A stretch of 64,000 bases of DNA from Escherichia phage PSa2: sequence record OL770310; one strand, written 5' to 3'. Below the pieces are notes generated by a model that did not search any database, was not told the origin of the DNA, and saw only the letters and a program-made list of their open reading frames with translations. A program made the position numbers and the translations under genes. Below, in pieces: positions 1 through 11,197 of the stretch. Numbering within the stretch: position 1 is the first letter of the stretch; each line of letters starts with the position of its first letter.

Positions 1-271
1 ATTTTATCTCGGCCTATTTCGAGAGTCTTGAGGAAGCTGAAAGTGCGATAAGGGAAGCACGTGAGAAAGTATGTGGTGAGTTCACAAACCACGGTTAATA
101 GCGCTAATTTGAAAATTTTGAAATTTCATAAGATTACACATGCGGATGTGCTCAGTGGGACGGGGGATAGTTAGTAGTCTAATAATCCCCCTGTGTTACT
201 ATTACCATGCTAACTGTTTCATCCTGTAACCATTTTTTAATTACAAGATGAAACTATTTTATTTTTAATTG

Positions 272-1006
272 TTAGGCAACTTTTAATTTATCAATGAATT
301 GTTGCGGTGTGGTACTATATTCCGCGCGTTCTTCCTCGGTCATACCTTCCCAACACATTTTTAAACGGTCGGCTAGGAATTGATAATCATTATCATCATC
401 TAATGATTCATCAATAAAGGTTTCACCTATCAATGTTACCCCGATTGATAGGATATCGTTAACGGCTTGAGCGTCCAGCGTTTTAAATCCAGCATTTGCC
501 GCCGCTGATAATACACCTTTATGATCATCAATCATCGTAAAATCAGCGTTAGGATATAGCTGTTTAAACAGTTCAAAGTAATAAGACTTATATACAGCGT
601 CTTTGCTGTGGTATATTTCGCTAACCTTACCCGCTTCAAAGTATTTATGTAATGTATCGCGGGAAAATACGCGAATATTACTATTTCCGCGCCCTCTTAG
701 ACTTTGTTTACGCAAGAAATAATAATCAGATTTACCCATTAAGCGAGCGGTACAAATAAGGTTTAAGGTATTGGGATCATTCATACATTGGCGCATATAT
801 TCAACCAATGGCAATAAAGAATCCTGCATAATTAAATCATGCTTGCAGGCTTCGCGGGAATATTTATTTAAATCTAAATTCCCGTTATCGTCAAAGCAAG
901 GCGCTACACGATGGAAAGAATTTATAATCGTTCCGTCTAAATCCCAAATCATAACGCGGGAAATATGCGGGAAAGTGCGGGTAATATTCATTTTAACTTG
1001 ATTCAT
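272..1006 (-). CDS. dmp: 5'-deoxyribonucleotidase, HAD-family phosphatase (T5 Dmp-like)
   Basis: 244-aa ORF; N-terminal HAD motif I (WDLDGTII); position at extreme left of the pre-early block as in T5. Confidence 0.65.
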   Translation of the reverse strand: MNQVKMNITRTFPHISRVMIWDLDGTIINSFHRVAPCFDDNGNLDLNKYSREACKHDLIMQDSLLPLVEYMRQCMNDPNTLNLICTARLMGKSDYYFLRKQSLRGRGNSNIRVFSRDTLHKYFEAGKVSEIYHSKDAVYKSYYFELFKQLYPNADFTMIDDHKGVLSAAANAGFKTLDAQAVNDILSIGVTLIGETFIDESLDDDNDYQFLADRLKMCWEGMTEEERAEYSTTPQQFIDKLKVA

Positions 1007-1093
1007 TTGTTACATTCTCCATTTAAGGGATTTAGGTTAATTCAATCTTGCCAGCTAATTATATTAGATTAGCTGGCAATGTTCAATTAACTA

Positions 1094-1486
1094 TTAATTA
1101 GTGAGGCCATACGCTAGCGCGTCACCAATAAAGCTAAGATCTTCACCATGTACGCTAGAACGAATCCCCGCGCAAGTATAAACCATTGCGCTAGCTTCTG
1201 GATTGCAGACCGGACACGGCTTAACAACTGCAAACGCTAGACCGGATTTAAGCGCATCAATAATAATTGTTTGCACTGTCAAAGTATCAGCGTAAACGCC
1301 TTTTGCTTTCGTATGGCTTGCCACTTTGCCGGTATCATAAGCAAAGGTAGTAACCTGCAAAGCGTCGTTATAATTCAGCAAATCAAAATTAACTTGCCCC
1401 GCCTCGACGTGATAACGTTCACCATTAGAATAAACTAGAACGATGGAAGAAGTAGCGCGGTCAAAAGGAATGTTTTGGTTTTTCAT
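1094..1486 (-). CDS. pre-early hypothetical protein (A2 candidate by size and position)
   Basis: 130-aa ORF between dmp-like and A1-like genes; no motif recognised. Confidence 0.45.
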   Translation of the reverse strand: MKNQNIPFDRATSSIVLVYSNGERYHVEAGQVNFDLLNYNDALQVTTFAYDTGKVASHTKAKGVYADTLTVQTIIIDALKSGLAFAVVKPCPVCNPEASAMVYTCAGIRSSVHGEDLSFIGDALAYGLTN

Positions 1487-1522
1487 GTTTATGACTCCAG
1501 ATTATTTAATTACGGGATTAAA

Positions 1523-1783
1523 TTATTTAATACTGATTTGCATTTGATAGCCGGTTAATTCGCCTTTGGTCGGATAATCATTATCATCTAACCATTCCGC
1601 AAAATCAGCGGTATTATTAAAGCAAATAACATCACTATCATTTGAATCTATAACTACAACGCCGTTATTATTTTCTGACTCAGCGGCGAATAAATGCCCG
1701 AATTGATAAACCTTGCCCGATAAAATATCATGAGCGTCTACTAAATCGGATTTATTTATATTCTTTGGTAACACTACATTCAT
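1523..1783 (-). CDS. hypothetical acidic protein
   Basis: 86-aa ORF, same strand, tight packing. Confidence 0.4.
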   Translation of the reverse strand: MNVVLPKNINKSDLVDAHDILSGKVYQFGHLFAAESENNNGVVVIDSNDSDVICFNNTADFAEWLDDNDYPTKGELTGYQMQISIK

Positions 1784-1836
1784 TTAATTTTACCTTTTAT
1801 TAATGGCGGTATATTTCAACCGCCGATTAAATTTAA

Positions 1837-3504
1837 TTATGCAAAGAATTTACCGTTTTTGAAATCAATCAAAGTACGTTGCCCGTTTGCATAGGTAATT
1901 AAATGCGTTTGCGTCCAGCTTGACGCGCCCACGTTGTAACCCATATCGAGACTACCAGCAACGCCAGCGGTATAAACGCCGCCGTAAATGCTAGCCGTAT
2001 GAGTATGACCAGTGTTAAGGCGTCCCAACTTTTTAAACTGCTTAGGATTGCCCCGACTGCCGTTAATGCCATTGTGACCATGTACGCCGCACTCAATTCC
2101 TGCAATCTTGAAAGATTGGTCAGTAGTCAGGAAAATAGCGTTAAATTCGCAACCTGCGACGTTCCGCAAGGCGTAATCTAGCACGTTAAAGGTATCATCC
2201 TTTTCAGCAATAGCGGCGTAAATCGCAGCGTTTAGACGGTGATACAATTCCGCGTTTGCGGGATCGTCTTTAATGTTAGCGTTACGATCATCAAGCCAGC
2301 GTGAAAGAGCTAAATCATGGTTAGATTCCACAATGATTGTTTGAGAGAAATCACGCTCCATAGACTCTAATACGCGGCCCGTATCGATAAGATCATCAAT
2401 AACTTTATCACGTCCGGCGGCGTATTGTTTAGCAAGGAATACACCACTTGCGCGGTTATGGTGATTGCGGGATGTAAAATCATGCACATCATGAATAAAT
2501 TGATATTTCGGTTTAAGAATATCAAGCAAGCTGTTTTCACTAGCCCATGAAGCGACGGCGCAATCATCATCTAGTTTTTCGGCGTGAATATCGCCATATT
2601 GCAAGCCTAGAACATGATCGGACGTTTCAAAACATCCGGTAGGCATAGCGCAAACATTCAAATCATAGAACATTCCGCTTTCATCCATTGTTTCAAGTTG
2701 GCGGCAATAAAATTCTCCGTCGTCGTCAAATTCTACCAGCAAAGCGCCGTAATTATGTAAAGCCTCGGCCTTTTGTCCTGCTTTCTGCTGAATGTAGTTT
2801 TTAAGCGTAGCCGTTCCGGTTGAATACATACGGCGCACTACTTCACCTTTTAACGCTGGTACACTTTCAGCGGTAATTTTTGCCGCACCAATTGCCAGAC
2901 CTTCAATATTTAAAGCCGTGGCGGTTTCTGCGAATCCTGTAAGCGGATAATCTGCCGTTGGTAATACGTTAATTTCAGACATGAAAGCAAAGCGGCGATT
3001 ATTCAGGAAAACATTTTTATCACAGATATATTTATCAAATGCGGGATCGTATTTAATTTTTTCTTTGCTGCCGTCGCCGTTCTGGAATCCATTTTTATTG
3101 TAAATGAATTTACTAACCAGCAATTCACCGCCGATATATTCAGCGAATTTTTCCAGACTTGCTAAAAAGTTTTTATGCGGGAAAGTATTATTTTGAATCG
3201 ACGTTAGAATAAAACGGCGACCGGATTTAACTTCCCATTGTTCCACGGTACTAGAAACAATCCCCGCCGCTTCGGGGCGATCATCATTTTTAATCGCCTT
3301 TTCAGCTTTTGCCGCTTTCGGTTTCGCTGGCTTGTTTGCTTCTAACCAGTCACAAATTGCGGTTGAATGTTTCGTTGTATCGTAAACAGCTTTTGAAATA
3401 TCGTCGCAAACTTCTAATTTAGTAGCGCGCAAACGCTTACCATAGAAATTAAAATCAGCGGCCATTTTCAGAATTTGAGCTTGTTTTTCTGCGGAAATAT
3501 TCAT
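1837..3504 (-). CDS. A1: A1-like pre-early protein with calcineurin-like metallophosphoesterase motifs
   Basis: 555-aa ORF; motifs LQYGDIHAEK, GHNGINGSRGN, GHTHT; size and position match T5 A1. Confidence 0.65.
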   Translation of the reverse strand: MNISAEKQAQILKMAADFNFYGKRLRATKLEVCDDISKAVYDTTKHSTAICDWLEANKPAKPKAAKAEKAIKNDDRPEAAGIVSSTVEQWEVKSGRRFILTSIQNNTFPHKNFLASLEKFAEYIGGELLVSKFIYNKNGFQNGDGSKEKIKYDPAFDKYICDKNVFLNNRRFAFMSEINVLPTADYPLTGFAETATALNIEGLAIGAAKITAESVPALKGEVVRRMYSTGTATLKNYIQQKAGQKAEALHNYGALLVEFDDDGEFYCRQLETMDESGMFYDLNVCAMPTGCFETSDHVLGLQYGDIHAEKLDDDCAVASWASENSLLDILKPKYQFIHDVHDFTSRNHHNRASGVFLAKQYAAGRDKVIDDLIDTGRVLESMERDFSQTIIVESNHDLALSRWLDDRNANIKDDPANAELYHRLNAAIYAAIAEKDDTFNVLDYALRNVAGCEFNAIFLTTDQSFKIAGIECGVHGHNGINGSRGNPKQFKKLGRLNTGHTHTASIYGGVYTAGVAGSLDMGYNVGASSWTQTHLITYANGQRTLIDFKNGKFFA

Positions 3505-3542
3505 AACTAATTCAACTCCTATAAAGGGATAAAGATTAAAGC

Positions 3543-3556
3543 TGGCAATATTGCCA
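3543..3556. promoter_or_regulatory. perfect 14-bp palindrome TGGCAATATTGCCA about 40 bp upstream of the A1-like start
   Basis: read directly; half sites TGGCAAT/ATTGCCA. Confidence 0.3.
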
Positions 3557-3613
3557 AATATAACGCCTTGCCTGAAGTGAGGACAATTTAAAAGGCGTTA
3601 TAATTTGCAACAT

Positions 3614-3838
3614 TTAATTAAGCGGCATTAAACTAGAACAAAAGCCAAATACAATGCCAATTGTAAGAAAGATAATTGACAGATATTTTTGAATGTTCGC
3701 GTTTTTGCGGAAATTATTTGCGGCGTAAACGTTATTAATTCCAATTATTGCCAGAATTGACCTCGTATAATTCAGAATAAAAGCGGCGGCAATAATAAAT
3801 AAACCTAAAATAAACGCTTCGCTAGGATAAAAGATCAA
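3614..3838 (-). CDS. small membrane protein (two hydrophobic segments)
   Basis: 74-aa ORF, hydrophobic stretches. Confidence 0.35.
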   Translation of the reverse strand: MIFYPSEAFILGLFIIAAAFILNYTRSILAIIGINNVYAANNFRKNANIQKYLSIIFLTIGIVFGFCSSLMPLN

Positions 3839-3858
3839 GATTATTCTCCTTTAAGGGT

Positions 3859-3880
3859 TAGCGGGGAATATTCCCCGCTA
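3859..3880. terminator. perfect 22-bp palindrome TAGCGGGGAATATTCCCCGCTA (hairpin, terminator-like)
   Basis: read directly; lies between two minus-strand ORFs; same arms as hairpin at 7308. Confidence 0.35.
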
Positions 3881-3888
3881 GTTAAAAT

Positions 3889-4305
3889 TTATTCACCTGC
3901 GGCCTGTTTTACTTCCTCCGCTACGCCTAACAATTGCGCTACAGCTTCCAGCGTTTCCAGTTTTGCACTTTCCAGACTTGCCAGATCGTCGGCGTCTTTA
4001 ATAACGCCGCTATCAATAGCGTGTTTAGCGATGACGCGCACATAGTGAGCTTTACGGACACTAGACCCGCCGCCAACTTTACGCGGTTTATCGCTTTTCT
4101 GGTATGCTTTTGCGCTTGTCAGTTTAGAACGTACAGAAACAGGACTTGCAGCGCCAACGGCGGCGGCAATTTCTTTCAGGCCGTCACTGTTAGCAAATTC
4201 AATTCCGCTTTTAGCGACCATTTCAGAATACATAGAAACAGCTTTTTCGGTGTTTTCTTCGTTCCAAGAGAATTTTGCGGTTTTTTCGGTTTTAACGTTA
4301 GACAT
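3889..4305 (-). CDS. hypothetical protein
   Basis: 138-aa ORF. Confidence 0.5.
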   Translation of the reverse strand: MSNVKTEKTAKFSWNEENTEKAVSMYSEMVAKSGIEFANSDGLKEIAAAVGAASPVSVRSKLTSAKAYQKSDKPRKVGGGSSVRKAHYVRVIAKHAIDSGVIKDADDLASLESAKLETLEAVAQLLGVAEEVKQAAGE

Positions 4306-4591
4306 AATTTAATACTCCATTCAATTATTAATTAAGGGATTATGATTAACTAAATGTTAATCGCTATATATTCTATTAGCTAGAATATATAACGGAAACA
4401 TTTTATTTTTATTTCCAGTTTCAAGCGGTTTATTAATTCCCGAATATATTTATATTCTCACCTTATCCGGCTTGCCAGAGAATTAATAAGGCAACATTGT
4501 ATTTATACGCTGTTTATTATTCCGTTCACGCTAGGAATATTTCGAGTTATCTTTATTGCCTAACTAAGCATGATATGTAAGGCGCATTAAT

Positions 4592-4843
4592 TTATGCGAT
4601 AGCTTGCCATTTATCATCTTTCTGAATGATTTTTACAACGTCGCCAGATTTAACACGGACGTTATAAATCGGCTTGCCGTTGTTACTGCGTTCCGTTTCC
4701 GCATAGACCGCTTCAATCTTATCAAAGGGATCAAGCGCCGCGCCTTTGATACGTTCGGCTTTTCCGGTTAATTCATCCGTTTTAGTTACAAAAGGAATGA
4801 ATACAGATTGACCTACTTTCGGCGCGGTAATAACGTTTTGCAT
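4592..4843 (-). CDS. hypothetical protein
   Basis: 83-aa ORF. Confidence 0.45.
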   Translation of the reverse strand: MQNVITAPKVGQSVFIPFVTKTDELTGKAERIKGAALDPFDKIEAVYAETERSNNGKPIYNVRVKSGDVVKIIQKDDKWQAIA

Positions 4844-5007
4844 TTTTAATACTCCGGTTTATTGGGGATTATTCCACAATAGCGCCTCGATACTTTGAAA
4901 CGCTATTAGATTATAATCCGCTAGGAGTTAGCCTAAACATTACCGTTATCCAAATTTTTAAAGAGCAGTTACTACAGGGAACATCTTAAAACCTATCGGC
5001 TAGCGTG

Positions 5008-5226
5008 TCAAGCGTTTTTTAAACTTTTTTCGATTTGATGGGAGTTATATAAATCAATCATTATATTACGCCACACCATTTCCAGACCTTGCTGCTTGCC
5101 TTTCTTGTATTGCTTGAATCGGTATTTTATCGATCGTTGCGCTACTGTCAACAAATTTTTTGTTCTGCTATCTAATGCACTAGCAGGTTTCGCACTAATC
5201 ACTAAAGCGTTTTTTGATTTGATCAT
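5008..5226 (-). CDS. small basic protein
   Basis: 72-aa Lys/Arg-rich ORF. Confidence 0.35.
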   Translation of the reverse strand: MIKSKNALVISAKPASALDSRTKNLLTVAQRSIKYRFKQYKKGKQQGLEMVWRNIMIDLYNSHQIEKSLKNA

Positions 5227-5602
5227 TATCGTCGATTCCTTATATTATATAAGTTTACCGCCGATAGGCTTTAAGATGTTCCCTAGTTTTTAAAGAGCGC
5301 GGCGGTAAACTTCCCCGCCGTGTAGTTCGTCATTGCCGCCCTACGTGATAAATAATAGGAGAATACCGAGAAGGGCGCAACCTTATTTTTGTAAAGAAAC
5401 GTAAAGATAAACGCCACTGCACCACGTCCAGCGGCGCACTAAATTTAATGAAACGGGCGCGCGAATAACACCAAAACAACCATTTTAGCAAGTAATTTTT
5501 TCATTTATATTTGCTTTGCCCTACTTGACAAAATCTAAAATCCTCGTGGTGAGGTTTTCTCGGTGTACCCCTTATGATTGCCTATCTTTTCCTTTGAGGC
5601 GC

Positions 5603-5629
5603 TTAGAATGCGTTACAGAGCGTTTTAGA
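5603..5629 (+). repeat. 27-bp direct repeat TTAGAATGCGTTACAGAGCGTTTTAGA, copy 1
   Basis: identical copy at 9681-9707; related TAGAATGCG motifs near 6107 (inverted) and 10778. Confidence 0.6.
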
Positions 5630-5946
5630 CCCTGTTAATAACTTATACAAAAAGCAAAAATGAAATTTAATGAGTTATCCACTTGATTTTTCAAAAAAGT
5701 ATTTTCTGCTATTATTTTTCATTGACAAATAAGTTTAGACGTGCATTGATTGGTTAGCAGACTAACAATCGCTAGGATGATAATCACGCTGGTGGATTGT
5801 AACAGCTGAAACAGTTAGCAGACTATTAATACTCTAAAAACCTATTAGCCAACTAACTATTTCATATTATATAATATACTTATAAATTAAAGAGAAATAA
5901 TAACTATAAGAAACTATCGGCTAAGTGAGAACCACTATCATTTAGG

Positions 5947-5967
5947 TTATTCACAAAGTTATCCACA
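5947..5967 (+). promoter_or_regulatory. two adjacent DnaA-box-like 9-mers (TTATTCACA, TTATCCACA)
   Basis: matches to DnaA box consensus TTATNCACA read directly. Confidence 0.5.
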
Positions 5968-6007
5968 GCACAAAATAACTTGACGCAATAGGTGACGTTT
6001 TGGCGAC

Positions 6008-6016
6008 TTATCCACA
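6008..6016 (+). promoter_or_regulatory. DnaA box TTATCCACA
   Basis: exact consensus 9-mer. Confidence 0.5.
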
Positions 6017-6036
6017 GACTTATATACAGGTTATCC

Positions 6037-6056
6037 TACTGTATAAATATACAGGG
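6037..6056. promoter_or_regulatory. LexA/SOS-box-like palindrome TACTGTATAAATATACAGGG
   Basis: CTGT-N8-ACAG with AT-rich spacer; about 17/20 match to TACTGTATATATATACAGTA. Confidence 0.5.
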
Positions 6057-6303
6057 TAAATAGGTAGCAGTAACAACCGCAATCAAATTTAAGCGGCCTA
6101 GAACGCATTCTAAGCGATTTTCTCACTGCTACCCTTATTATAATAAAGCCTTGTGTACGCTTACATAGAGCTAGAAATAGAAAACGCGCGGTTATCATAA
6201 AAACAGGCAGTAAGCAAGAAATAAAAAACCTTTTCTTTTTTCTTGCCCCTAGTGAACAATTATCTATATCATTCACTCACCGATTAACGAGGGAGACAAA
6301 GAA

Positions 6304-7299
6304 ATGTCTACTGTAAGAATTGCAGTACCAGCAAACGCCACTATTATTAAGGGTAGTTTGCGCAACCTGCTAGACGGATCAAGTCCAGCAAGCCTACAGC
6401 ATACGGCGGCAATGGTTGAAAAGATTCACGATGATATTTTAGATAATAATGATACTCATTATTGTTTAAGTGATTTCACACAACTACTAGACCCTACCCG
6501 CGTTCTAGTGCTTTACAACCGTGACTATCACATCATGCGAAATCAGCGGGGAAGCGATATTGATTTTATCATTGTAGGTCACGACGAAAAAAGCTATATT
6601 GCCCGTGGTTACAATGTACAAGAAAAGGAAATGGTTTTCGCTACTAGCGTAAATGGTATTAATTCCAGCGATGTAGAAGATTTACTATCTAGTATTTGGG
6701 GCGAATTGACAAGCGCCATTAAACGTGCTGATAGTGACGCAATCGAAACAACTGGCGTATTGTGTTTTGAACGCGCTAGCGGTAACATGTTGATCCCTAA
6801 CGATTATTTAGAGTATGGGAATGAATCAAACGTTGCAAACGCTGGATTTACACTTTTACCGCTTGACAATGTAACAAAACAGGATGTAAACTCTCAAACT
6901 TCAAGCGCAAATGCGCAAACTACTGAAAATAAAGGAAATATTATGTCTAAAGTATCTTCTATCGTTGCCGCTAACAAATCTGCCGTTGTAAACGCTGCTA
7001 AACTGGAAGCGGGTAAAATTGCACTAACTCAAATCACAAAAGTAGCGGCTAAAAAAGCGCCGTTTATGATCAAAGGTTATATTGATACTCCGATTGGTCG
7101 CGTAGTGATCGCTAACCTGTTAAGCGTAGCGGTTGACCAGTACGCCCCGACTAATGCGAAAGCGAAAGCGGTAGCAGGCGCAGCAATGGAAGCGGCAATG
7201 CTGGAAATGGTACAGAGTTTCAATATTGCTGAAATGATCGATGAAATGGTAAAAGGTATTGACATTTCTACCTTTACCCAAAACACCGAAACAGAATAA
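6304..7299 (+). CDS. hypothetical protein
   Basis: 331-aa ORF with GAGGGAG RBS; followed by hairpin terminator. Confidence 0.6.
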   Translation: MSTVRIAVPANATIIKGSLRNLLDGSSPASLQHTAAMVEKIHDDILDNNDTHYCLSDFTQLLDPTRVLVLYNRDYHIMRNQRGSDIDFIIVGHDEKSYIARGYNVQEKEMVFATSVNGINSSDVEDLLSSIWGELTSAIKRADSDAIETTGVLCFERASGNMLIPNDYLEYGNESNVANAGFTLLPLDNVTKQDVNSQTSSANAQTTENKGNIMSKVSSIVAANKSAVVNAAKLEAGKIALTQITKVAAKKAPFMIKGYIDTPIGRVVIANLLSVAVDQYAPTNAKAKAVAGAAMEAAMLEMVQSFNIAEMIDEMVKGIDISTFTQNTETE

Positions 7300-7307
7300 T
7301 AATTACT

Positions 7308-7336
7308 AGCGGGGATTATTTCCCCGCTTTACTATT
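7308..7336 (+). terminator. intrinsic terminator hairpin AGCGGGGA-TTATT-TCCCCGCT plus T-rich tail
   Basis: read directly downstream of 6304-7299. Confidence 0.5.
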
Positions 7337-7363
7337 TCCCTGTTAATTGTTAGGAGACTAATT

Positions 7364-7858
7364 ATGTCAGAAGAAAAATATGGCTTTTCGCTAGAAAGTG
7401 TGAATGAAGCTAAACACGATATGATCGTTTTAGTTGATTGTCATACTGGCTATTGCGGGGAGGGCTGGACGGAGGAACATTTTGTTCCCGCTGGCTGTGA
7501 TCTGGACGCTTTCGCAAACGAACACGCATATGATAATGCTTCTCGTTTCGGTAGTGACGGGGAAGAAGATGAAGAAACAGGGGAATGGATTGAAAATGAT
7601 AATGTATATGCGAGTATTTATCATTATCAATTGAGTAAGTCCGGTACTTATGTAAATGGCGGCGATCCTATTAATACCGTTATGAAACTAATTATTAAAC
7701 ACGGTGGCGCGGAAATAATTGGTAACAAGGCGTTATTATACGCAAATCGATTAAAACAGCTTGTTTATATTCCTGATAATTCCCGTTGGGATGAATATGC
7801 CGTTTTACAGAAAGAATTAAAACGCTGTTTCAACATTGAAGCATTAGAAATAGTCTAA
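7364..7858 (+). CDS. hypothetical acidic protein
   Basis: 164-aa ORF. Confidence 0.6.
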   Translation: MSEEKYGFSLESVNEAKHDMIVLVDCHTGYCGEGWTEEHFVPAGCDLDAFANEHAYDNASRFGSDGEEDEETGEWIENDNVYASIYHYQLSKSGTYVNGGDPINTVMKLIIKHGGAEIIGNKALLYANRLKQLVYIPDNSRWDEYAVLQKELKRCFNIEALEIV

Positions 7859-7874
7859 TGTAAAGTTTTGTAAA

Positions 7875-7900
7875 GGTCGCCTATGTTGGCGGCCTTTTTT
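7875..7900 (+). terminator. intrinsic terminator (GGTCGCC-TATGTT-GGCGGCC followed by TTTTTT)
   Basis: 7-bp stem with one G-U, T6 tract. Confidence 0.6.
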
Positions 7901-7965
7901 GTTATAATGCCTTTACACCTAAACGGTGGATTGAAAATTTTCCCTGATTTCTAGGAGGCGTTAAA

Positions 7966-8193
7966 ATGGTGCATTCATCATCTTCTGCAATTTTTAACGG
8001 TATGGAATGGGTATCCGTTCCCGCTATTGTCAGCGTTATGGTTTCTGAATTTGGGATCGGTAAAACTTATGTTACCATTCAGGAGCTTTACGACAACGAC
8101 AAGATTGACCAGCAAACCGCCGGATTTTTGCTGGATGAATTGAAAGCTAACCATTGCACCAAAAAGCAAGCGGCAAAAATTGTTTTAATGTAA
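7966..8193 (+). CDS. hypothetical protein
   Basis: 75-aa ORF with RBS AGGAGG. Confidence 0.5.
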   Translation: MVHSSSSAIFNGMEWVSVPAIVSVMVSEFGIGKTYVTIQELYDNDKIDQQTAGFLLDELKANHCTKKQAAKIVLM

Positions 8194-8200
8194 TTATTAA

Positions 8201-8219
8201 AGGGGATATATTATCCCCT
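8201..8219 (+). terminator. hairpin AGGGGATA-TAT-TATCCCCT (weak T tail)
   Basis: palindrome directly after 7966-8193. Confidence 0.3.
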
Positions 8220-8239
8220 AATTTCTAGGAGCTAATAAA

Positions 8240-8389
8240 ATGGTTATTTTTCGATCTATTCTGGCTAGTATCTTGGGCGCTATTTTATCGCTGTTTGTAA
8301 TAGCTTTCGGCGTTCACGTGGTTATTATTGGAGCAGGTATCGCGGGGTTTTCTTACTTGTTAGGCTGTATGACTGGTAAAGGGGAATAA
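8240..8389 (+). CDS. small hydrophobic membrane peptide (49 aa, below ORF-track cutoff)
   Basis: ATG at 8240 preceded by TAGGAG; MVIFRSILASILGAILSLFVIAFGVHVVIIGAGIAGF. Confidence 0.4.
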   Translation: MVIFRSILASILGAILSLFVIAFGVHVVIIGAGIAGFSYLLGCMTGKGE

Positions 8390-8391
8390 AA

Positions 8392-8604
8392 ATGTTAAAG
8401 AATGTTTCCCTTGCCCGTTCCAAAGGTTTTAAGCTGGTGGATGTTAACACGTTCGAGCGTCCAGATTGTAAAATCGAATATGTAGCACGCAACAAAAACG
8501 CTTTCCGTGTTACAGAAAAGAAATTTGACAAGCGCGGAAATTTGGTAGCCGAAACGGTTAAACACTTTGCCACCTTTTACGCTGCTTTTCGTGGGGTATT
8601 ATGA
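8392..8604 (+). CDS. hypothetical protein
   Basis: 70-aa ORF. Confidence 0.5.
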   Translation: MLKNVSLARSKGFKLVDVNTFERPDCKIEYVARNKNAFRVTEKKFDKRGNLVAETVKHFATFYAAFRGVL

Positions 8605-8713
8605 GATCCTTATATATTGCTCTAGCGTTTGCTACCGTTGGCGTTGTTTGCTCATTCGCTGCATTTGTTTTAAAAATGTACCTGATATTTTCCCAGCTTT
8701 AGGAGGTTGACAA

Positions 8714-9058
8714 ATGGTAATTTATGAGGGTAATCGTTTTGTTACTAATTGCCGTCCGGCATTATTAGCAAACTATTTAAATCAGCTTTCACCAGTTTAT
8801 AAAGGCGTAGTTAATATCTATGAGGGCAAAGCACATTATAAGATTAATGCCATTGTTGCCCGTGAACTAGCGTTTCAATTTTTAACTTTTGGGTCTTGTG
8901 ACGTTCAGGTTATGGGGGAAGCGTTAATAGCGGAAAATGAAAATGAATTTATTGACATTTTCCGCAAAGTATGTACAGAGCGCCTGATTATGAAAGGCGC
9001 ATATATTCAATCAACCGCTGATAGTATTGAAACAGCGTTTCGAAAGGTGGCGCAATGA
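8714..9058 (+). CDS. hypothetical protein
   Basis: 114-aa ORF with AGGAGG RBS. Confidence 0.55.
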   Translation: MVIYEGNRFVTNCRPALLANYLNQLSPVYKGVVNIYEGKAHYKINAIVARELAFQFLTFGSCDVQVMGEALIAENENEFIDIFRKVCTERLIMKGAYIQSTADSIETAFRKVAQ

Positions 9059-9267
9059 AAAAGTTTACTTTAGTTATTAATAATCGTGTAACTATTTCAC
9101 TGGAAGCGGTTACTATAGCCGGTTTTATTGCTAATCTTGCATCGCTAGGGATTTTAAGCGGATACCCTGAATTGTGGGACTGGCTACCTGATGTAAGAAA
9201 CAAGGGAGGCGAATTATACGGAATTACTATTCGCGCAAAATTAACTATAGAGAATTTAAAACCGTGA
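9055..9267 (+). CDS. hypothetical protein
   Basis: 70-aa ORF, start overlaps upstream stop. Confidence 0.5.
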   Translation: MKKFTLVINNRVTISLEAVTIAGFIANLASLGILSGYPELWDWLPDVRNKGGELYGITIRAKLTIENLKP

Positions 9268-9310
9268 ATAGCTGGTGGCGAAAAACACAAAGCCATAAAT
9301 CTAATAATAC

Positions 9311-9341
9311 CGCTGGGAAACATTCCCAGCGTTTACTATTT
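9311..9341 (+). terminator. intrinsic terminator CGCTGGGAAACATTCCCAGCG plus T-rich tail
   Basis: read directly. Confidence 0.5.
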
Positions 9342-9397
9342 GGTAATGGCTTTACAATGATATTGATAATCATTCTCATTCTAGGAGCGATGGCGTT

Positions 9398-9592
9398 ATG
9401 AGTGATAAAATTGTTGTAACTAAAACTACTGTTACCGTTGATACTTTCTTTGTGCCTGATACGCTGGAAAATCGGCAAGCGGTGGAGCGTGGCGATTATG
9501 ATATAGTGATTTATGATAACGATGGTTACTACCAACATTTGGTAGACTCCTACGGCGAAAGCGAAAAGATCACACATCGACTACCAGACTAA
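9398..9592 (+). CDS. hypothetical protein
   Basis: 64-aa ORF with AGGAG RBS. Confidence 0.5.
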   Translation: MSDKIVVTKTTVTVDTFFVPDTLENRQAVERGDYDIVIYDNDGYYQHLVDSYGESEKITHRLPD

Positions 9593-9598
9593 TAATAA

Positions 9599-9628
9599 CG
9601 GGGCGCAACTATCGGCCCCGCCTTTTCT
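9599..9628 (+). terminator. intrinsic terminator CGGGGC-N10-GCCCCG followed by CCTTTTCT
   Basis: read directly after last plus-strand cassette gene. Confidence 0.55.
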
Positions 9629-9680
9629 GCCTGCAAACAAATTTCCCCTTATTAAAGTACCTCCTCCAAAAATAAACGCG

Positions 9681-9707
9681 TTAGAATGCGTTACAGAGCG
9701 TTTTAGA
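9681..9707 (+). repeat. 27-bp direct repeat TTAGAATGCGTTACAGAGCGTTTTAGA, copy 2
   Basis: identical to 5603-5629. Confidence 0.6.
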
Positions 9708-9737
9708 GCTATATTAGAGTTATTCACTACGTAGGAA

Positions 9738-9757
9738 TACTGTATAAATATACAGTA
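9738..9757. promoter_or_regulatory. LexA/SOS box TACTGTATAAATATACAGTA
   Basis: 19/20 match to SOS-box consensus; embedded in a ~28-bp element inverted relative to the copy at 6030-6056. Confidence 0.55.
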
Positions 9758-9838
9758 GAATAACCTGTTGATAAGTCTGTTGAAAACGTCTCAAAATCGC
9801 TAGGATTTTGTCAAGTCAAATCGTGCTGTTAATAAACC

Positions 9839-9847
9839 TGTGGATAA
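9839..9847 (-). promoter_or_regulatory. DnaA box (TGTGGATAA on plus)
   Basis: exact reverse complement of TTATCCACA. Confidence 0.45.
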
Positions 9848-9882
9848 CTTAAATAACAGTGTTTCTCACTTCGCTTTGTAAA

Positions 9883-10023
9883 TGCGAGTCATTCTCATTA
9901 TGCGACTCATTCGCATTCCGCCAATCAAATGATAACCATTCTCATTCCTCTTTCTAAACGCGAATCATTCTCATTCGCATTCAACTTCTCAAATGCGAAT
10001 CAATCTCATTATCATTTGCATTT
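9883..10023 (+). repeat. array of about 5 degenerate direct repeats GCGA(A/G)TCATTCTCATT
   Basis: copies near 9883, 9901, 9932, 9960, 9994. Confidence 0.55.
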
Positions 10024-10060
10024 CGGCAGGCAGGGCATTTTCTATTTGCCCTGCGCTTTT

Positions 10061-10663
10061 GTGCAAATCCGACATTTGCCCCCACGGATTACGTGCCAGC
10101 GTGTATGTGCGAATCCGACAATTTTTGGTGGTGTGCAAATCCGATGGGAAATATTTTTATAATGTGCGAATCCGACAATGAATTTTCCTAAAAACTCCAG
10201 CAATCACGAGCGTGGCTCGATTCCTGTGGAATTAGCTAGAATATGTGCAGAACCGACAAGCGTTAAGGTGTGCGAATCCGACAAGATTTTTGTGACTTCG
10301 ATGAGAGGGTGTGTAATTGTGTGAGTTTGGGGAGAAGTGCGAATCCGACGAGGTTTTTGGGAGGAACTATGGAGGGTGCAGCTGTAGTGGTGCTTCAGCA
10401 CCGGTTTGCTGCGTTTTTGGGGATAATGTGGGATGTTTTGGCTAGAATTGAGATTAGTGGAGATAAAGCGAAATTTTTATTAGCAAAATGGGGCAAAATC
10501 GCTTGACAAGTGAAAATTCCTGTGGCTCCAAAAACTCAGGCAATCAAGGGCCTTCGGCCCGAAATAATGCTGCTATTTTCAGGAGAGTATGTGTTCATGA
10601 AAACTTAGGCAATTGTGCAAATCCGACCATAAATTTCTAGAAACACAATGTGCAAATCCGACA
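10061..10663 (+). repeat. array of 9 dispersed direct repeats TGCGAATCCGACA (variants TGCAAATCCGACA, TGCAGAACCGACA)
   Basis: copies near 10061, 10108, 10133, 10164, 10246, 10270, 10338, 10616, 10651, all same orientation, irregular spacing. Confidence 0.65.
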
Positions 10664-10707: not shown

Positions 10708-10779
10708 AACCGCCCTCCCTATAACCGCCCTGTATAGGAAACCGCCCTAGGATATCTATAGTAGGTGAGAAACTGCCCT
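10708..10779 (+). repeat. four direct repeats AACCGCCCT (one AACTGCCCT)
   Basis: copies at 10708, 10723, 10740, 10771. Confidence 0.55.
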
Positions 10780-11197
10780 AGAATGCGTGAGAAACAGATT
10801 TAAAGTTTGATGTAAACTCTAGAGTTAGTGCTCAACTATTCCTAGAAACTTAGGAGTCTAGAGGAAAGTGTTGTGCCATCCTAGCAGATGAGCGGCAACA
10901 GGTGTATCATCTTGAACATAAATATTGCCTTTAAATATTTATAAGGTAAATAAAAGTAAATATACCCCCATTTCATGAGAGTTAGCCCCTCTAGGCGCGT
11001 GCGATTTGATACATCCTCCTGAGTCTCGGGGAGGAAGAACAATTGACGAGAACCTGCAAGCAGAACCGTCATCAAGTGTTTTCCTACGAGGAATGATGTA
11101 AATCTACGGCCTAGAGGTAAAAACAAGTTGATGTTTTTAATCTATGAGATTATTATAACATGCAGCTCAAATAATGTCAAGAAGATTTTATTAACAT

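What the first reader, a model, noticed from the sequence alone, without database searches (positions are those of the whole stretch)
5603..9757. Plus-strand gene cassette bracketed by inverted SOS-box elements and a 27-bp direct repeat
The only plus-strand genes in the left 55 kb (6304-9592) are flanked on each side by the same 27-bp sequence TTAGAATGCGTTACAGAGCGTTTTAGA (5603, 9681) and by a ~28-bp element containing CTGTATAAATATACAG in opposite orientations (6030-6056 and 9738-9766). The right copy TACTGTATAAATATACAGTA is a 19/20 match to the E. coli LexA box. This suggests either host SOS/LexA control of this region or a bounded, formerly mobile or invertible cassette.
Basis: seen in the sequence. 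Interest (0 to 1): 0.6.

Follow-up and report, generated by a model that had tools for sequence, protein, structure and literature searches.

The report
T5-type inverted repeats with LexA boxes
The repeats around this gene block are the long-known inverted repeats of the first-injected end of T5-like phage genomes, but their core palindrome is a near-perfect binding site for the host SOS repressor LexA, conserved next to DnaA boxes from E. coli phages to Vibrio phages, which gives a testable lead on how these phages pause DNA injection.

Summary
The window is the left terminal-repeat (pre-early) end of a T5-like Epseptimavirus. The two "28-bp elements" are the inner tips of a 148-bp inverted repeat (5920-6067 / 9727-9874). 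This repeat is orthologous to T5's annotated IR C-spacer-IR D and IR D'-spacer-IR C', and the right copy lies inside T5's annotated "injection stop signal". The palindrome is T5's annotated "palindrome D". The 27-bp repeat belongs to a four-copy family (T5 IR B/B') and does not bracket the block symmetrically.

All 31 distinct relatives examined have both arms around a gene block of variable content. No recombinase is present. In Sugarlandvirus the block is inverted.

The LexA reading holds by sequence. Heterology index is 0.95 for the right box, better than any E. coli K-12 site, and 4.76 for the left box, about equal to recA. Palindrome and adjacent DnaA boxes are the only invariant stretches from Escherichia to Vibrio phages. 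Neither box overlaps a convincing promoter, so classical SOS control is not supported.

Best reading: conserved host-factor (DnaA plus LexA) docking elements on first-step-transfer DNA, with function still unproven. The architecture is already known. I found no mention of the LexA assignment in the literature I could search.

The parts
5603..5629 (+). 27-bp repeat, copy 1. It corresponds to T5 'inverted repeat B' and is made of three ~10-bp phased units of the form GCGTTNNAGA.
   Evidence: T5 annotation IR B 5285-5310.
5920..6067 (+). Left arm of the large inverted repeat, orthologous to T5 IR C-spacer-IR D (Repeat Region 2).
   Evidence: I1. 80% identical to T5 6022-6159. Aligned in 31 loci.
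5947..5967 (+). DnaA box pair TTATTCACA / TTATCCACA, 3 bp apart.
   Evidence: The pairing rule is described in Davison, bioRxiv 10.1101/866236.
6008..6028 (+). DnaA box TTATCCACA plus variant box TTATATACA, 3 bp apart.
6037..6056 (.). Left LexA-box-like palindrome TACTGTATAAATATACAGGG (HI 4.76).
6091..6116 (-). Inverted copy of the 27-mer family, corresponding to T5 IR B'. It forms an inverted pair with 9681-9707 just inside the two arms.
   Evidence: (I5, I9). T5 IR B' 6184-6209.
6243..6272 (+). Promoter-like site TTGCCC-18-TATCAT for the rightward block, at the position of T5's putative pre-early promoter T5P4.
   Evidence: T5 annotation 6331-6420. Consensus match only.
6304..9592 (+). Variable pre-early ORF block: DUF7566 protein, phrog_6741, the T5.015-type Ung-dependent AP-site nickase at 8392-8604, the T5.016 homologue at 8714-9058, and others.
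9599..9628 (+). Terminator-like GC hairpin followed by a T run, at the end of the block (position of T5 palindrome C / terminator).
   Evidence: Read from the sequence. T5 annotation 9194-9213. The scan did not list it because its loop exceeds 8 nt.
9681..9707 (+). 27-bp repeat, copy 2.
9727..9874 (-). Right arm of the large inverted repeat, orthologous to T5 IR D'-spacer-IR C'. It lies inside the 'injection stop signal' annotated in T5 st0.
   Evidence: 91% identical to T5 9319-9464..
9738..9757 (.). Right LexA-box-like palindrome TACTGTATAAATATACAGTA (HI 0.95), corresponding to T5 'palindrome D'.
9766..9786 (-). Pair of variant DnaA boxes, TTATCAACA / TTTTCAACA, 3 bp apart.
9827..9847 (-). 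Variant box TTATTAACA plus consensus DnaA box TTATCCACA, 3 bp apart.
10765..10804 (+). Fourth, degenerate copy of the TAGAATGCGT motif, flanked by two GTGAGAAAC motifs. GTGAGAAAC also forms the outer tip of the right arm.
   Evidence: (D4, I6).

Best explanation
This is the standard non-coding architecture of the first-step-transfer (pre-early, terminal-repeat) DNA of T5-like phages. It is not a mobile element and not an SOS-regulated operon.

Two ~150-bp inverted arms bracket the variable rightward pre-early gene block. In T5 nomenclature they are IR C-spacer-IR D and IR D'-spacer-IR C'. Each arm is a composite of host-factor sites: two pairs of DnaA boxes and, at the end nearest the block, a near-consensus LexA operator. 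A small family of 10-bp-phased GCGTTNNAGA repeats lies beside them.

Inferred mechanism: as the leftmost ~8% of the genome enters, host DnaA and LexA occupy these very strong sites within seconds. They assemble two nucleoprotein complexes in non-transcribed DNA at the borders of the pre-early transcription units. The right-hand complex lies in the region genetically and physically assigned to the injection stop signal. These complexes act in cis in the pause, anchoring or restart of two-step DNA transfer, or as insulators of the pre-early units. They do not work by SOS-responsive repression.

Shown: the orthology, the anatomy, the conservation and the LexA-site quality. Inferred: LexA and DnaA occupancy, and any role in DNA transfer. 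The long arms also allow rare homologous inversion and exchange of the enclosed block, which explains its flipped orientation in Sugarlandvirus and its variable content.
For: Identity of the region. The region is ~93% identical to Epseptimavirus genomes. A1 is 99.5% identical to phage Sepoy, whose predicted terminal repeat is 1-10295. The inner boundary of the terminal repeat maps to about window 10.52 kb.

Orthology with T5 features. GenBank record AY587007 annotates IR B, C, D, B', palindrome D, IR D' and IR C' at the homologous positions. Record AY692264 annotates 'injection stop signal' across the right arm. Davison (bioRxiv 10.1101/866236) describes the same 131-bp inverted repeats with eight DnaA boxes in pairs 3 bp apart. 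The window has exactly this pairing.

Conservation. Both arms are present in all 31 distinct loci, around blocks of 1.4-3.9 kb with variable gene content.

LexA-site quality. A heterology-index matrix re-derived from 140 published E. coli K-12 sites reproduces their values with rmse 0.0002. It gives 0.95 for the right box and 4.76 for the left. The best K-12 site scores 2.35, recA 4.31 and sulA 4.65. The next-best site in the window scores 13.06. All 31 right-arm boxes have HI of 3.3 or less.

Deep conservation. Proteus phage Stubb, Vibrio phages phi 3, Cilsick and D415, and Klebsiella Sugarlandvirus all keep the palindrome beside DnaA boxes. In the alignment across these phages the invariant columns are CTGTA..ATATACAGT and the DnaA box. 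Over the same phages A2 falls to 33-40% identity and A1 to 33-42%.

Pattern of variation. Changes among the phage sites fall where LexA tolerates them (Spearman -0.93, p 1e-4). They are not compensatory, so the constraint is on sequence rather than on a hairpin.

The sequence is a working operator elsewhere. The same 20-mer sits 18-55 bp upstream of DinI-like, UmuD-like and Tum-like genes in unrelated viral contigs.
Against: No experiment here or in the searchable literature shows LexA or DnaA bound to T5 DNA. The DnaA/injection-stop model is itself an untested preprint hypothesis.

The whole arm is well conserved among close relatives, so conservation of the palindrome within Markadamsvirinae is not specific to it. 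Only the distant phages single it out.

Four of 31 left-arm sites have ACAA in place of ACAG, which should cripple one LexA half-site. The left box is therefore dispensable in some phages.

All known hosts share the same LexA motif, so no host-motif covariation test was possible. The Rhizobium A1-like phage is not T5-like.

From my own knowledge, not tested here: T5 grows on recA1 laboratory strains such as DH5alpha, so LexA cleavage cannot be required. LexA may therefore be only modulatory.
Confidence: 0.55

Rival explanations
1. The palindrome is the site of a phage-encoded protein, for example the dimeric DNA-binding A2 or the A1-A2 complex needed for second-step transfer. Its likeness to a LexA box is incidental or secondary.
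For: A2 is a conserved DNA-binding pre-early protein (phrog_1725 'DNA binding protein'). It is described as a dimer binding double-stranded DNA and required for second-step transfer. A symmetric site suits a dimer. The arms lie where A1/A2 are proposed to act.
Against: The 16-bp core is identical in the window and in Vibrio phage phi 3, while A2 is only 33% identical. Such invariance fits a host protein with fixed specificity better. The match is better than any chromosomal LexA site and the tolerated changes track LexA's tolerance. Chance convergence on HI below 1 is very improbable. LexA would in any case compete for the site. No sequence specificity is reported for A2 in the text I read.
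Confidence: 0.2
2. Classical SOS control: LexA represses a promoter overlapping each box. That promoter would drive the block, an antisense RNA or a small ORF, so that pre-early expression responds to host DNA damage.
For: The box quality is that of strong operators. A weak promoter-like TTATCA-16-TATATT overlaps the right box and faces into the block. An open frame of 24-62 codons follows it in most relatives.
Against: The left box is ~190 bp upstream of the block's promoter-like site and the right box is beyond its terminator-like hairpin. The overlapping hexamers score only 9/12, and the homologous left-arm stretch did not pass the scan. The region's 33 promoter-like hits against 18.9 +/- 5.4 in shuffles show that such matches are common. 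The ORF has a GTG start, no Shine-Dalgarno sequence visible, variable length, and no third-position excess (13/11/11 variable columns). It is absent in Sugarlandvirus. In genuine phage operators the same 20-mer lies 18-55 bp from a start codon, which is not the case here.
Confidence: 0.1
3. The arms work as DNA structure, not as protein sites. Hairpins or cruciforms, or pairing of the two arms, would physically stall DNA translocation. This is the classical secondary-structure view of the injection stop signal.
For: The region is full of palindromes and repeats. The palindrome alone folds better than its shuffles (z -4.8). The AAAT/ATTT centre flips without intermediates look like hairpin-loop inversions.
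Against: The whole arms do not fold unusually well (z -1.4 and -1.7). The hairpin is weak (-4.9 kcal/mol). Stem changes in relatives (GTACAG, CTGTGT, ATCCAG, CTGTAAT) are never compensated. What is invariant are the exact consensus bases of two host proteins.
Confidence: 0.1
4. A bounded mobile or actively invertible cassette whose inverted repeats are recombination sites.
For: Inverted repeats bracket a block of highly variable content. The block is inverted in Sugarlandvirus with three colinear homologues.
Against: No integrase, invertase or transposase is found in or beside the block. There is no symmetric target-site duplication. The arms are fixed in every T5-like genome at the same place, and the right arm occurs alone in Vibrio phage phi 3. 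The 28 other relatives examined have the window's orientation. Orthologous arms are more alike between genomes (78-98%) than the two arms are within a genome (72-83%), so exchange between arms is rare.
Confidence: 0.05

Closest known systems
Bacteriophage T5 left-terminal-repeat Repeat Regions 2 and 3: IR C-spacer-IR D, IR D'-spacer-IR C', IR B/B', palindrome D, injection stop signal (GenBank AY587007 and AY692264; Davison, bioRxiv 10.1101/866236)
   Same: Position relative to dmp-A1-A2 is the same, and so are the order and orientation of all elements. The arms are 80% and 91% identical. There are eight DnaA or variant boxes in pairs 3 bp apart. Palindrome D is identical. The rightward block between the arms is variable in both.
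   Different: [quoted passage not shown] Its IR B copy happens to be 27/27 identical to the copy beside the right arm, whereas T5's is not. The gene content of the block differs. The sources I could read do not call palindrome D a LexA site.
LexA operators (SOS boxes) of Gammaproteobacteria and their temperate phages, for example upstream of dinI-, umuD- and tum-type genes
   Same: The sequence class is the same, CTGT-N8-ACAG with TA flanks. HI is 0.95 and 4.76, within or better than the range of proven operators. The identical 20-mer is used in front of DinI-like, S24 peptidase and Tum-like genes in other viral contigs.
   Different: Here the boxes are not promoter-proximal, no gene starts beside them, they abut DnaA boxes, and the phage is virulent. 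Regulation by DNA damage is neither shown nor suggested by the geometry.
Invertible segments flanked by inverted repeats (Mu G, P1 C, Salmonella Hin)
   Same: A gene block sits between inverted repeats and is found in both orientations across related genomes.
   Different: There is no invertase gene, and from memory no resemblance to hix/gix sites. The orientation is fixed within each lineage sampled. The inversion is best explained as rare homologous recombination between the ~150-bp arms.

Membership tests
T5-type terminal-repeat inverted repeats (IR C/D - IR D'/C', iss region) | Located in the pre-early terminal-repeat region of a T5-like phage, next to dmp, A1 and A2. | tested here: met
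   dmp at 272-1006, A1 at 1837-3504 and A2 at 3889-4305, all on the minus strand. A1 is 99.5% identical to Sepoy. The region is ~93% identical to Epseptimavirus genomes. The terminal-repeat boundary maps to ~10.52 kb.
T5-type terminal-repeat inverted repeats (IR C/D - IR D'/C', iss region) | A ~130-150-bp inverted repeat pair flanking the rightward pre-early ORF block, homologous to T5's. | tested here: met
   Arms at 5920-6067 and 9727-9874. They are 80% and 91% identical to T5 6022-6159 and 9319-9464.
T5-type terminal-repeat inverted repeats (IR C/D - IR D'/C', iss region) | Eight DnaA or variant boxes, in pairs separated by 3 bp, two pairs per arm. | tested here: met
   Pairs at 5947/5959, 6008/6020, 9766/9778 and 9827/9839. 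The rule is stated.
T5-type terminal-repeat inverted repeats (IR C/D - IR D'/C', iss region) | Acts in cis as the signal that stops DNA injection after the first ~8%. | not testable with these tools
   Only the annotation and hypothesis papers bear on this. It needs blender or shear experiments with site mutants.
LexA operator (SOS box) | A 20-bp CTGT-N8-ACAG palindrome with a heterology index in the range of proven binding sites. | tested here: met
   HI is 0.95 and 4.76, against 2.35 for the best K-12 site, 4.31 for recA and 8.32 for lexA box 2.
LexA operator (SOS box) | Overlaps or abuts a promoter, so that LexA represses a downstream gene. | tested here: not met
   No strong promoter-like site overlaps either box. 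The left box is ~190 bp from the block's promoter-like site. The adjacent open frame is non-coding by the codon-position test. In true operators elsewhere the box lies 18-55 bp from a start codon.
LexA operator (SOS box) | Bound by LexA in vitro or in vivo and released on DNA damage. | not testable with these tools
   Needs EMSA, footprinting or ChIP.
Mobile or site-specifically invertible cassette | A recombinase (invertase, integrase or transposase) encoded in or beside the element. | tested here: not met
   Pfam and PHROG searches of A2, two adjacent leftward ORFs and seven of the block's ORFs gave only DUFs, a DNA-binding protein (A2) and the T5.015-type nickase.
Mobile or site-specifically invertible cassette | Present or absent, or in both orientations, among close relatives; direct repeats as target duplications at the outer ends. 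| tested here: not met
   The arms are present in 31/31 loci. Orientation is the same in all except the distant Sugarlandvirus. The 27-bp repeat lies outside the left arm but inside the right arm.

The most novel reading that the evidence does not exclude
LexA, together with DnaA, is a host factor deliberately recruited by all Demerecviridae onto first-step-transfer DNA. Palindrome D would be a super-consensus LexA operator, conserved from Escherichia to Vibrio phages, that forms part of the long-sought injection stop/restart signal or of pre-early insulation. This would be a non-transcriptional use of the SOS repressor by a virulent phage.
Probability: 0.35. Interest if true: 0.7.

Novelty: already known. 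Interest (0 to 1): 0.45.

Why it matters
How T5 stops after injecting 8% of its DNA, and how it restarts, has been open since the 1960s. The cis signal has never been dissected. The current model rests only on the DnaA boxes.

This analysis adds three points:
- The best-conserved element of the signal region is a better-than-chromosomal LexA operator. It is kept next to DnaA boxes across phage genera whose A1 and A2 proteins share only a third to two-fifths of their residues.
- This points to a second candidate host partner and to a short list of decisive, cheap experiments: EMSA, point mutants, and lexA or recA hosts.
- The "cassette" is not a mobile element, so the finding should not be pursued in that direction.

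Tried and rejected
1. SOS-regulated small ORF beside the right box. An open frame of 24-62 codons is conserved, but it has a GTG start, no Shine-Dalgarno sequence visible, variable length, and no third-position excess (13/11/11 variable columns). Rejected.

2. Covariation test with a host whose LexA motif differs. The Rhizobium phage carrying an A1-like gene is not T5-like in architecture, so the test was impossible.

3. Structured RNA. No Rfam match (best E 0.88), and the arms fold no better than shuffles.

4. Target-site-duplication reading of the 27-bp repeat. Rejected because placement is asymmetric, there are four family members, and the 27/27 identity is specific to this phage. The close relative L002 has 26/38 over the wider window and T5 has a different IR B.

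5. Site-specific invertase system. No recombinase was found.

6. LexA cleavage as the timer that releases injection. I considered it because A1 triggers host DNA degradation. I set it aside because, from my own knowledge, T5 plates on recA1 strains. This was not tested here.

7. Literature. Davison's 2015 paper and Heusterspreute et al. 1987 could not be retrieved. I therefore cannot exclude that the LexA likeness was noted there. Five searches turned up no discussion linking LexA to T5 or its relatives.

Full report
**Observation.**
- The 27-mer occurs exactly twice, at 5603 and 9681. None of 100 shuffles gave a match.
- CTGTATAAATATACAG is at 6039 and 9740.
- The right 20-mer is 19/20 to the LexA consensus and the left is 17/20. 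No other site in the 64 kb lies within three mismatches.
- The repeat finder shows that the "28-bp elements" are the inner tips of a 148-nt inverted repeat, 5920-6067 / 9727-9874.
- The 27-mer has a third, inverted copy at 6091-6116 and a degenerate fourth at 10778. Exact TAGAATGCGT occurs four times, only between 5.6 and 10.8 kb.
- The left 27-mer lies outside the left arm and the right one inside the right arm. The pair is therefore not a symmetric bracket.

**What the window is.**
- The region is ~93% identical to many Salmonella and Escherichia Epseptimavirus genomes.
- The minus-strand ORFs to its left are dmp, A1 and A2. A1 is 99.5% identical to phage Sepoy.
- The predicted terminal-repeat ends of Sepoy and T5 both map to about window 10.52 kb.
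- The finding therefore lies in the pre-early, first-step-transfer DNA of a T5-like phage.

**Already described.**
- T5's GenBank record AY587007 annotates, at the homologous places, inverted repeats B, C, D and B', palindrome D (TACTGTATAAATATACAGTA, identical to the window's right box), and inverted repeats D' and C'.
- The T5 st0 record annotates an "injection stop signal" across the right arm. It also annotates the classical promoters P-D/E20 and P-H22 for the leftward genes.
- Davison's preprint describes these 131-bp inverted repeats in 25 phages. Each has eight DnaA boxes in pairs 3 bp apart, flanking a poorly conserved ORF block. He proposes that membrane-bound DnaA holds the DNA.
- The window has exactly that arrangement: pairs at 5947/5959, 6008/6020, 9766/9778 and 9827/9839.
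- Four of the ten consensus DnaA boxes in the 64 kb lie in the ~300 bp of the arms.

**Comparison with relatives.**
- An A2-based scan gave 40 IMG/VR loci. Together with the window and T5 these make 31 distinct arm pairs.
- Every one has both arms. The enclosed block is 1.4-3.9 kb, and only the T5.015 and T5.016 homologues are present throughout the close relatives.
- The block encodes DUF proteins and the Ung-dependent AP-site nickase. No recombinase is found.
- In Sugarlandvirus-type loci, three homologues lie colinearly on the opposite strand between arms of unchanged orientation. They match DUF7566 (E 8e-48), the 164-aa protein (E 2e-19) and the T5.016-like protein (E 4e-8). The block was therefore inverted at least once in evolution.
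- Orthologous arms are more alike between genomes than the two arms are within one genome. Exchange between the arms is therefore rare.

**The LexA question: site quality.**
- I re-derived the heterology-index matrix from 140 E. coli K-12 sites with published HI values (PMC12527982, Table S1). The additive model reproduces them with rmse 0.0002.
- The right box scores 0.95, better than any K-12 site (best 2.35).
- The left box scores 4.76, against 4.31 for recA and 4.65 for sulA.
- The next-best site in the window scores 13.06.
- All 31 right-arm boxes score 3.3 or less.

**The LexA question: conservation.**
- Distant Demerecviridae keep the palindrome beside DnaA boxes: Proteus phage Stubb (HI 3.27 and 7.34), Vibrio phage phi 3 (5.59, core identical to the window's), Cilsick (3.27), D415 (three sites) and a Klebsiella phage (0.95 and 2.01).
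- In an alignment of seven phages the invariant columns are essentially CTGTA..ATATACAGT and a DnaA box.
- Over the same phages A2 is only 33-40% identical.
- Variability per position among the phage sites anticorrelates with LexA's penalty per position (Spearman -0.93, p 1e-4). This figure is not corrected for phylogeny.
- Changes in the stem are never compensated. This argues for base-specific recognition by an invariant host protein rather than by a hairpin or a co-evolving phage protein.
- The same 20-mer lies 18-55 bp upstream of DinI-like, S24 (UmuD-like) and Tum-like genes in unrelated viral contigs, without DnaA boxes nearby. It is thus a working operator sequence elsewhere.

**What it is not.**
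- The boxes are not placed like operators. The left one is ~190 bp upstream of the block's promoter-like site (6243-6272). The right one lies beyond the terminator-like hairpin.
- The only overlapping promoter-like match scores 9/12, in a region where such matches are common.
- The open frame next to the right box has no coding signature.
- No Rfam family matches, and the arms have no unusual fold.

**Mechanism, with its limits.**
- The best-supported reading is that the arms are docking elements for host DnaA and LexA on DNA that enters first. They sit in non-transcribed DNA at the borders of the pre-early units.
- The right arm lies in the region assigned to the injection stop signal.
- Occupancy and function are inferred, not shown.
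- Four left-arm sites carry a crippling ACAA.
- From my own knowledge, T5 grows on recA1 strains. LexA cleavage therefore cannot be essential.

**Novelty.** The architecture is already known and annotated. The LexA assignment of palindrome D, its conservation into Vibrio and Proteus phages, and the Sugarlandvirus inversion were not mentioned in anything I could search. Two key older papers were not retrievable.

Noticed in passing
window 6044-6047 and 9745-9748; the same positions in loci L001-L041: The four central bases of the palindrome read AAAT or ATTT, which are reverse complements. All four left/right combinations occur among relatives. Several closely related pairs differ, for example L039 and L040. 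None of about 70 sites shows the one-step intermediates ATAT or AATT. This looks like repeated hairpin-loop inversion rather than stepwise point mutation.
   Followed up: partly
L039 6036-9779, L040, L044 6147-9005 (Klebsiella Sugarlandvirus): The pre-early block between the arms is inverted relative to A1/A2. Three colinear homologues of window ORFs 6304-7299, 7364-7858 and 8714-9058 lie on the other strand.
   Followed up: yes
window 10060-10661 (and 12486): Ten copies of a 13-bp repeat, TGTGCAAATCCGA, correspond to T5 'direct repeat D'. They straddle the inferred inner boundary of the terminal repeat (~10.52 kb). One tail length (~0.7 kb) beyond the shear point would fall about here.
   Followed up: no
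window 9859-10031: A tandem family of ~35-47-bp units ending in CATTCTCATT, with internal palindromes (T5 direct repeats C/E), lies immediately right of the right arm.
   Followed up: no
window 10050-10057: CCTGCGCT matches the sequence at T5's annotated major 7.9% single-strand nick (T5 9661-9668), ~180 bp beyond the right arm.
   Followed up: no
window 4976-5000 / 5260-5284, and 4983-5011 and 5124-5151 (minus strand): A 25-nt, 96% inverted repeat (T5 IR A/A') encloses the two best sigma-70 matches of the region, TTGACA-17-TAAGAT and TTGACA-16-TAAAAT. These lie at the positions of the classical T5 promoters P-D/E20 and P-H22.
   Followed up: partly
window 5603-5629 and 9681-9707; L046 10890-10940: The 27-mer is three 10-bp-phased units of the form GCGTTNNAGA, an iteron-like arrangement. 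A similar motif, CTTAGAATCGCTTACAG, lies directly beside a palindrome in Vibrio phage D415, so this family is also deeply conserved. Its binding partner is unknown.
   Followed up: partly
IMG/VR loci L052-L131 that are not T5-like, e.g. L072, L122, L060: The exact 20-mer TACTGTATAWWTATACAGTA is common in 5-50-kb viral contigs. There it lies 18-55 bp upstream of DinI-like, Tum-like (DinI C-terminal domain) and S24-peptidase (UmuD-like) ORFs.
   Followed up: partly
window 1-230: The window starts about 160 bp to the left of the position homologous to the predicted physical left end of phage Sepoy. The source record may be permuted or have a differently called end.
   Followed up: no
window 9581-9727 (minus strand): A GTG-initiated open frame, VNNSNI.LKR..., is kept open for 24-62 codons in nearly all close relatives. 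It has no ribosome-binding site and no codon-position bias. It is probably a by-product of conserved non-coding DNA.
   Followed up: yes
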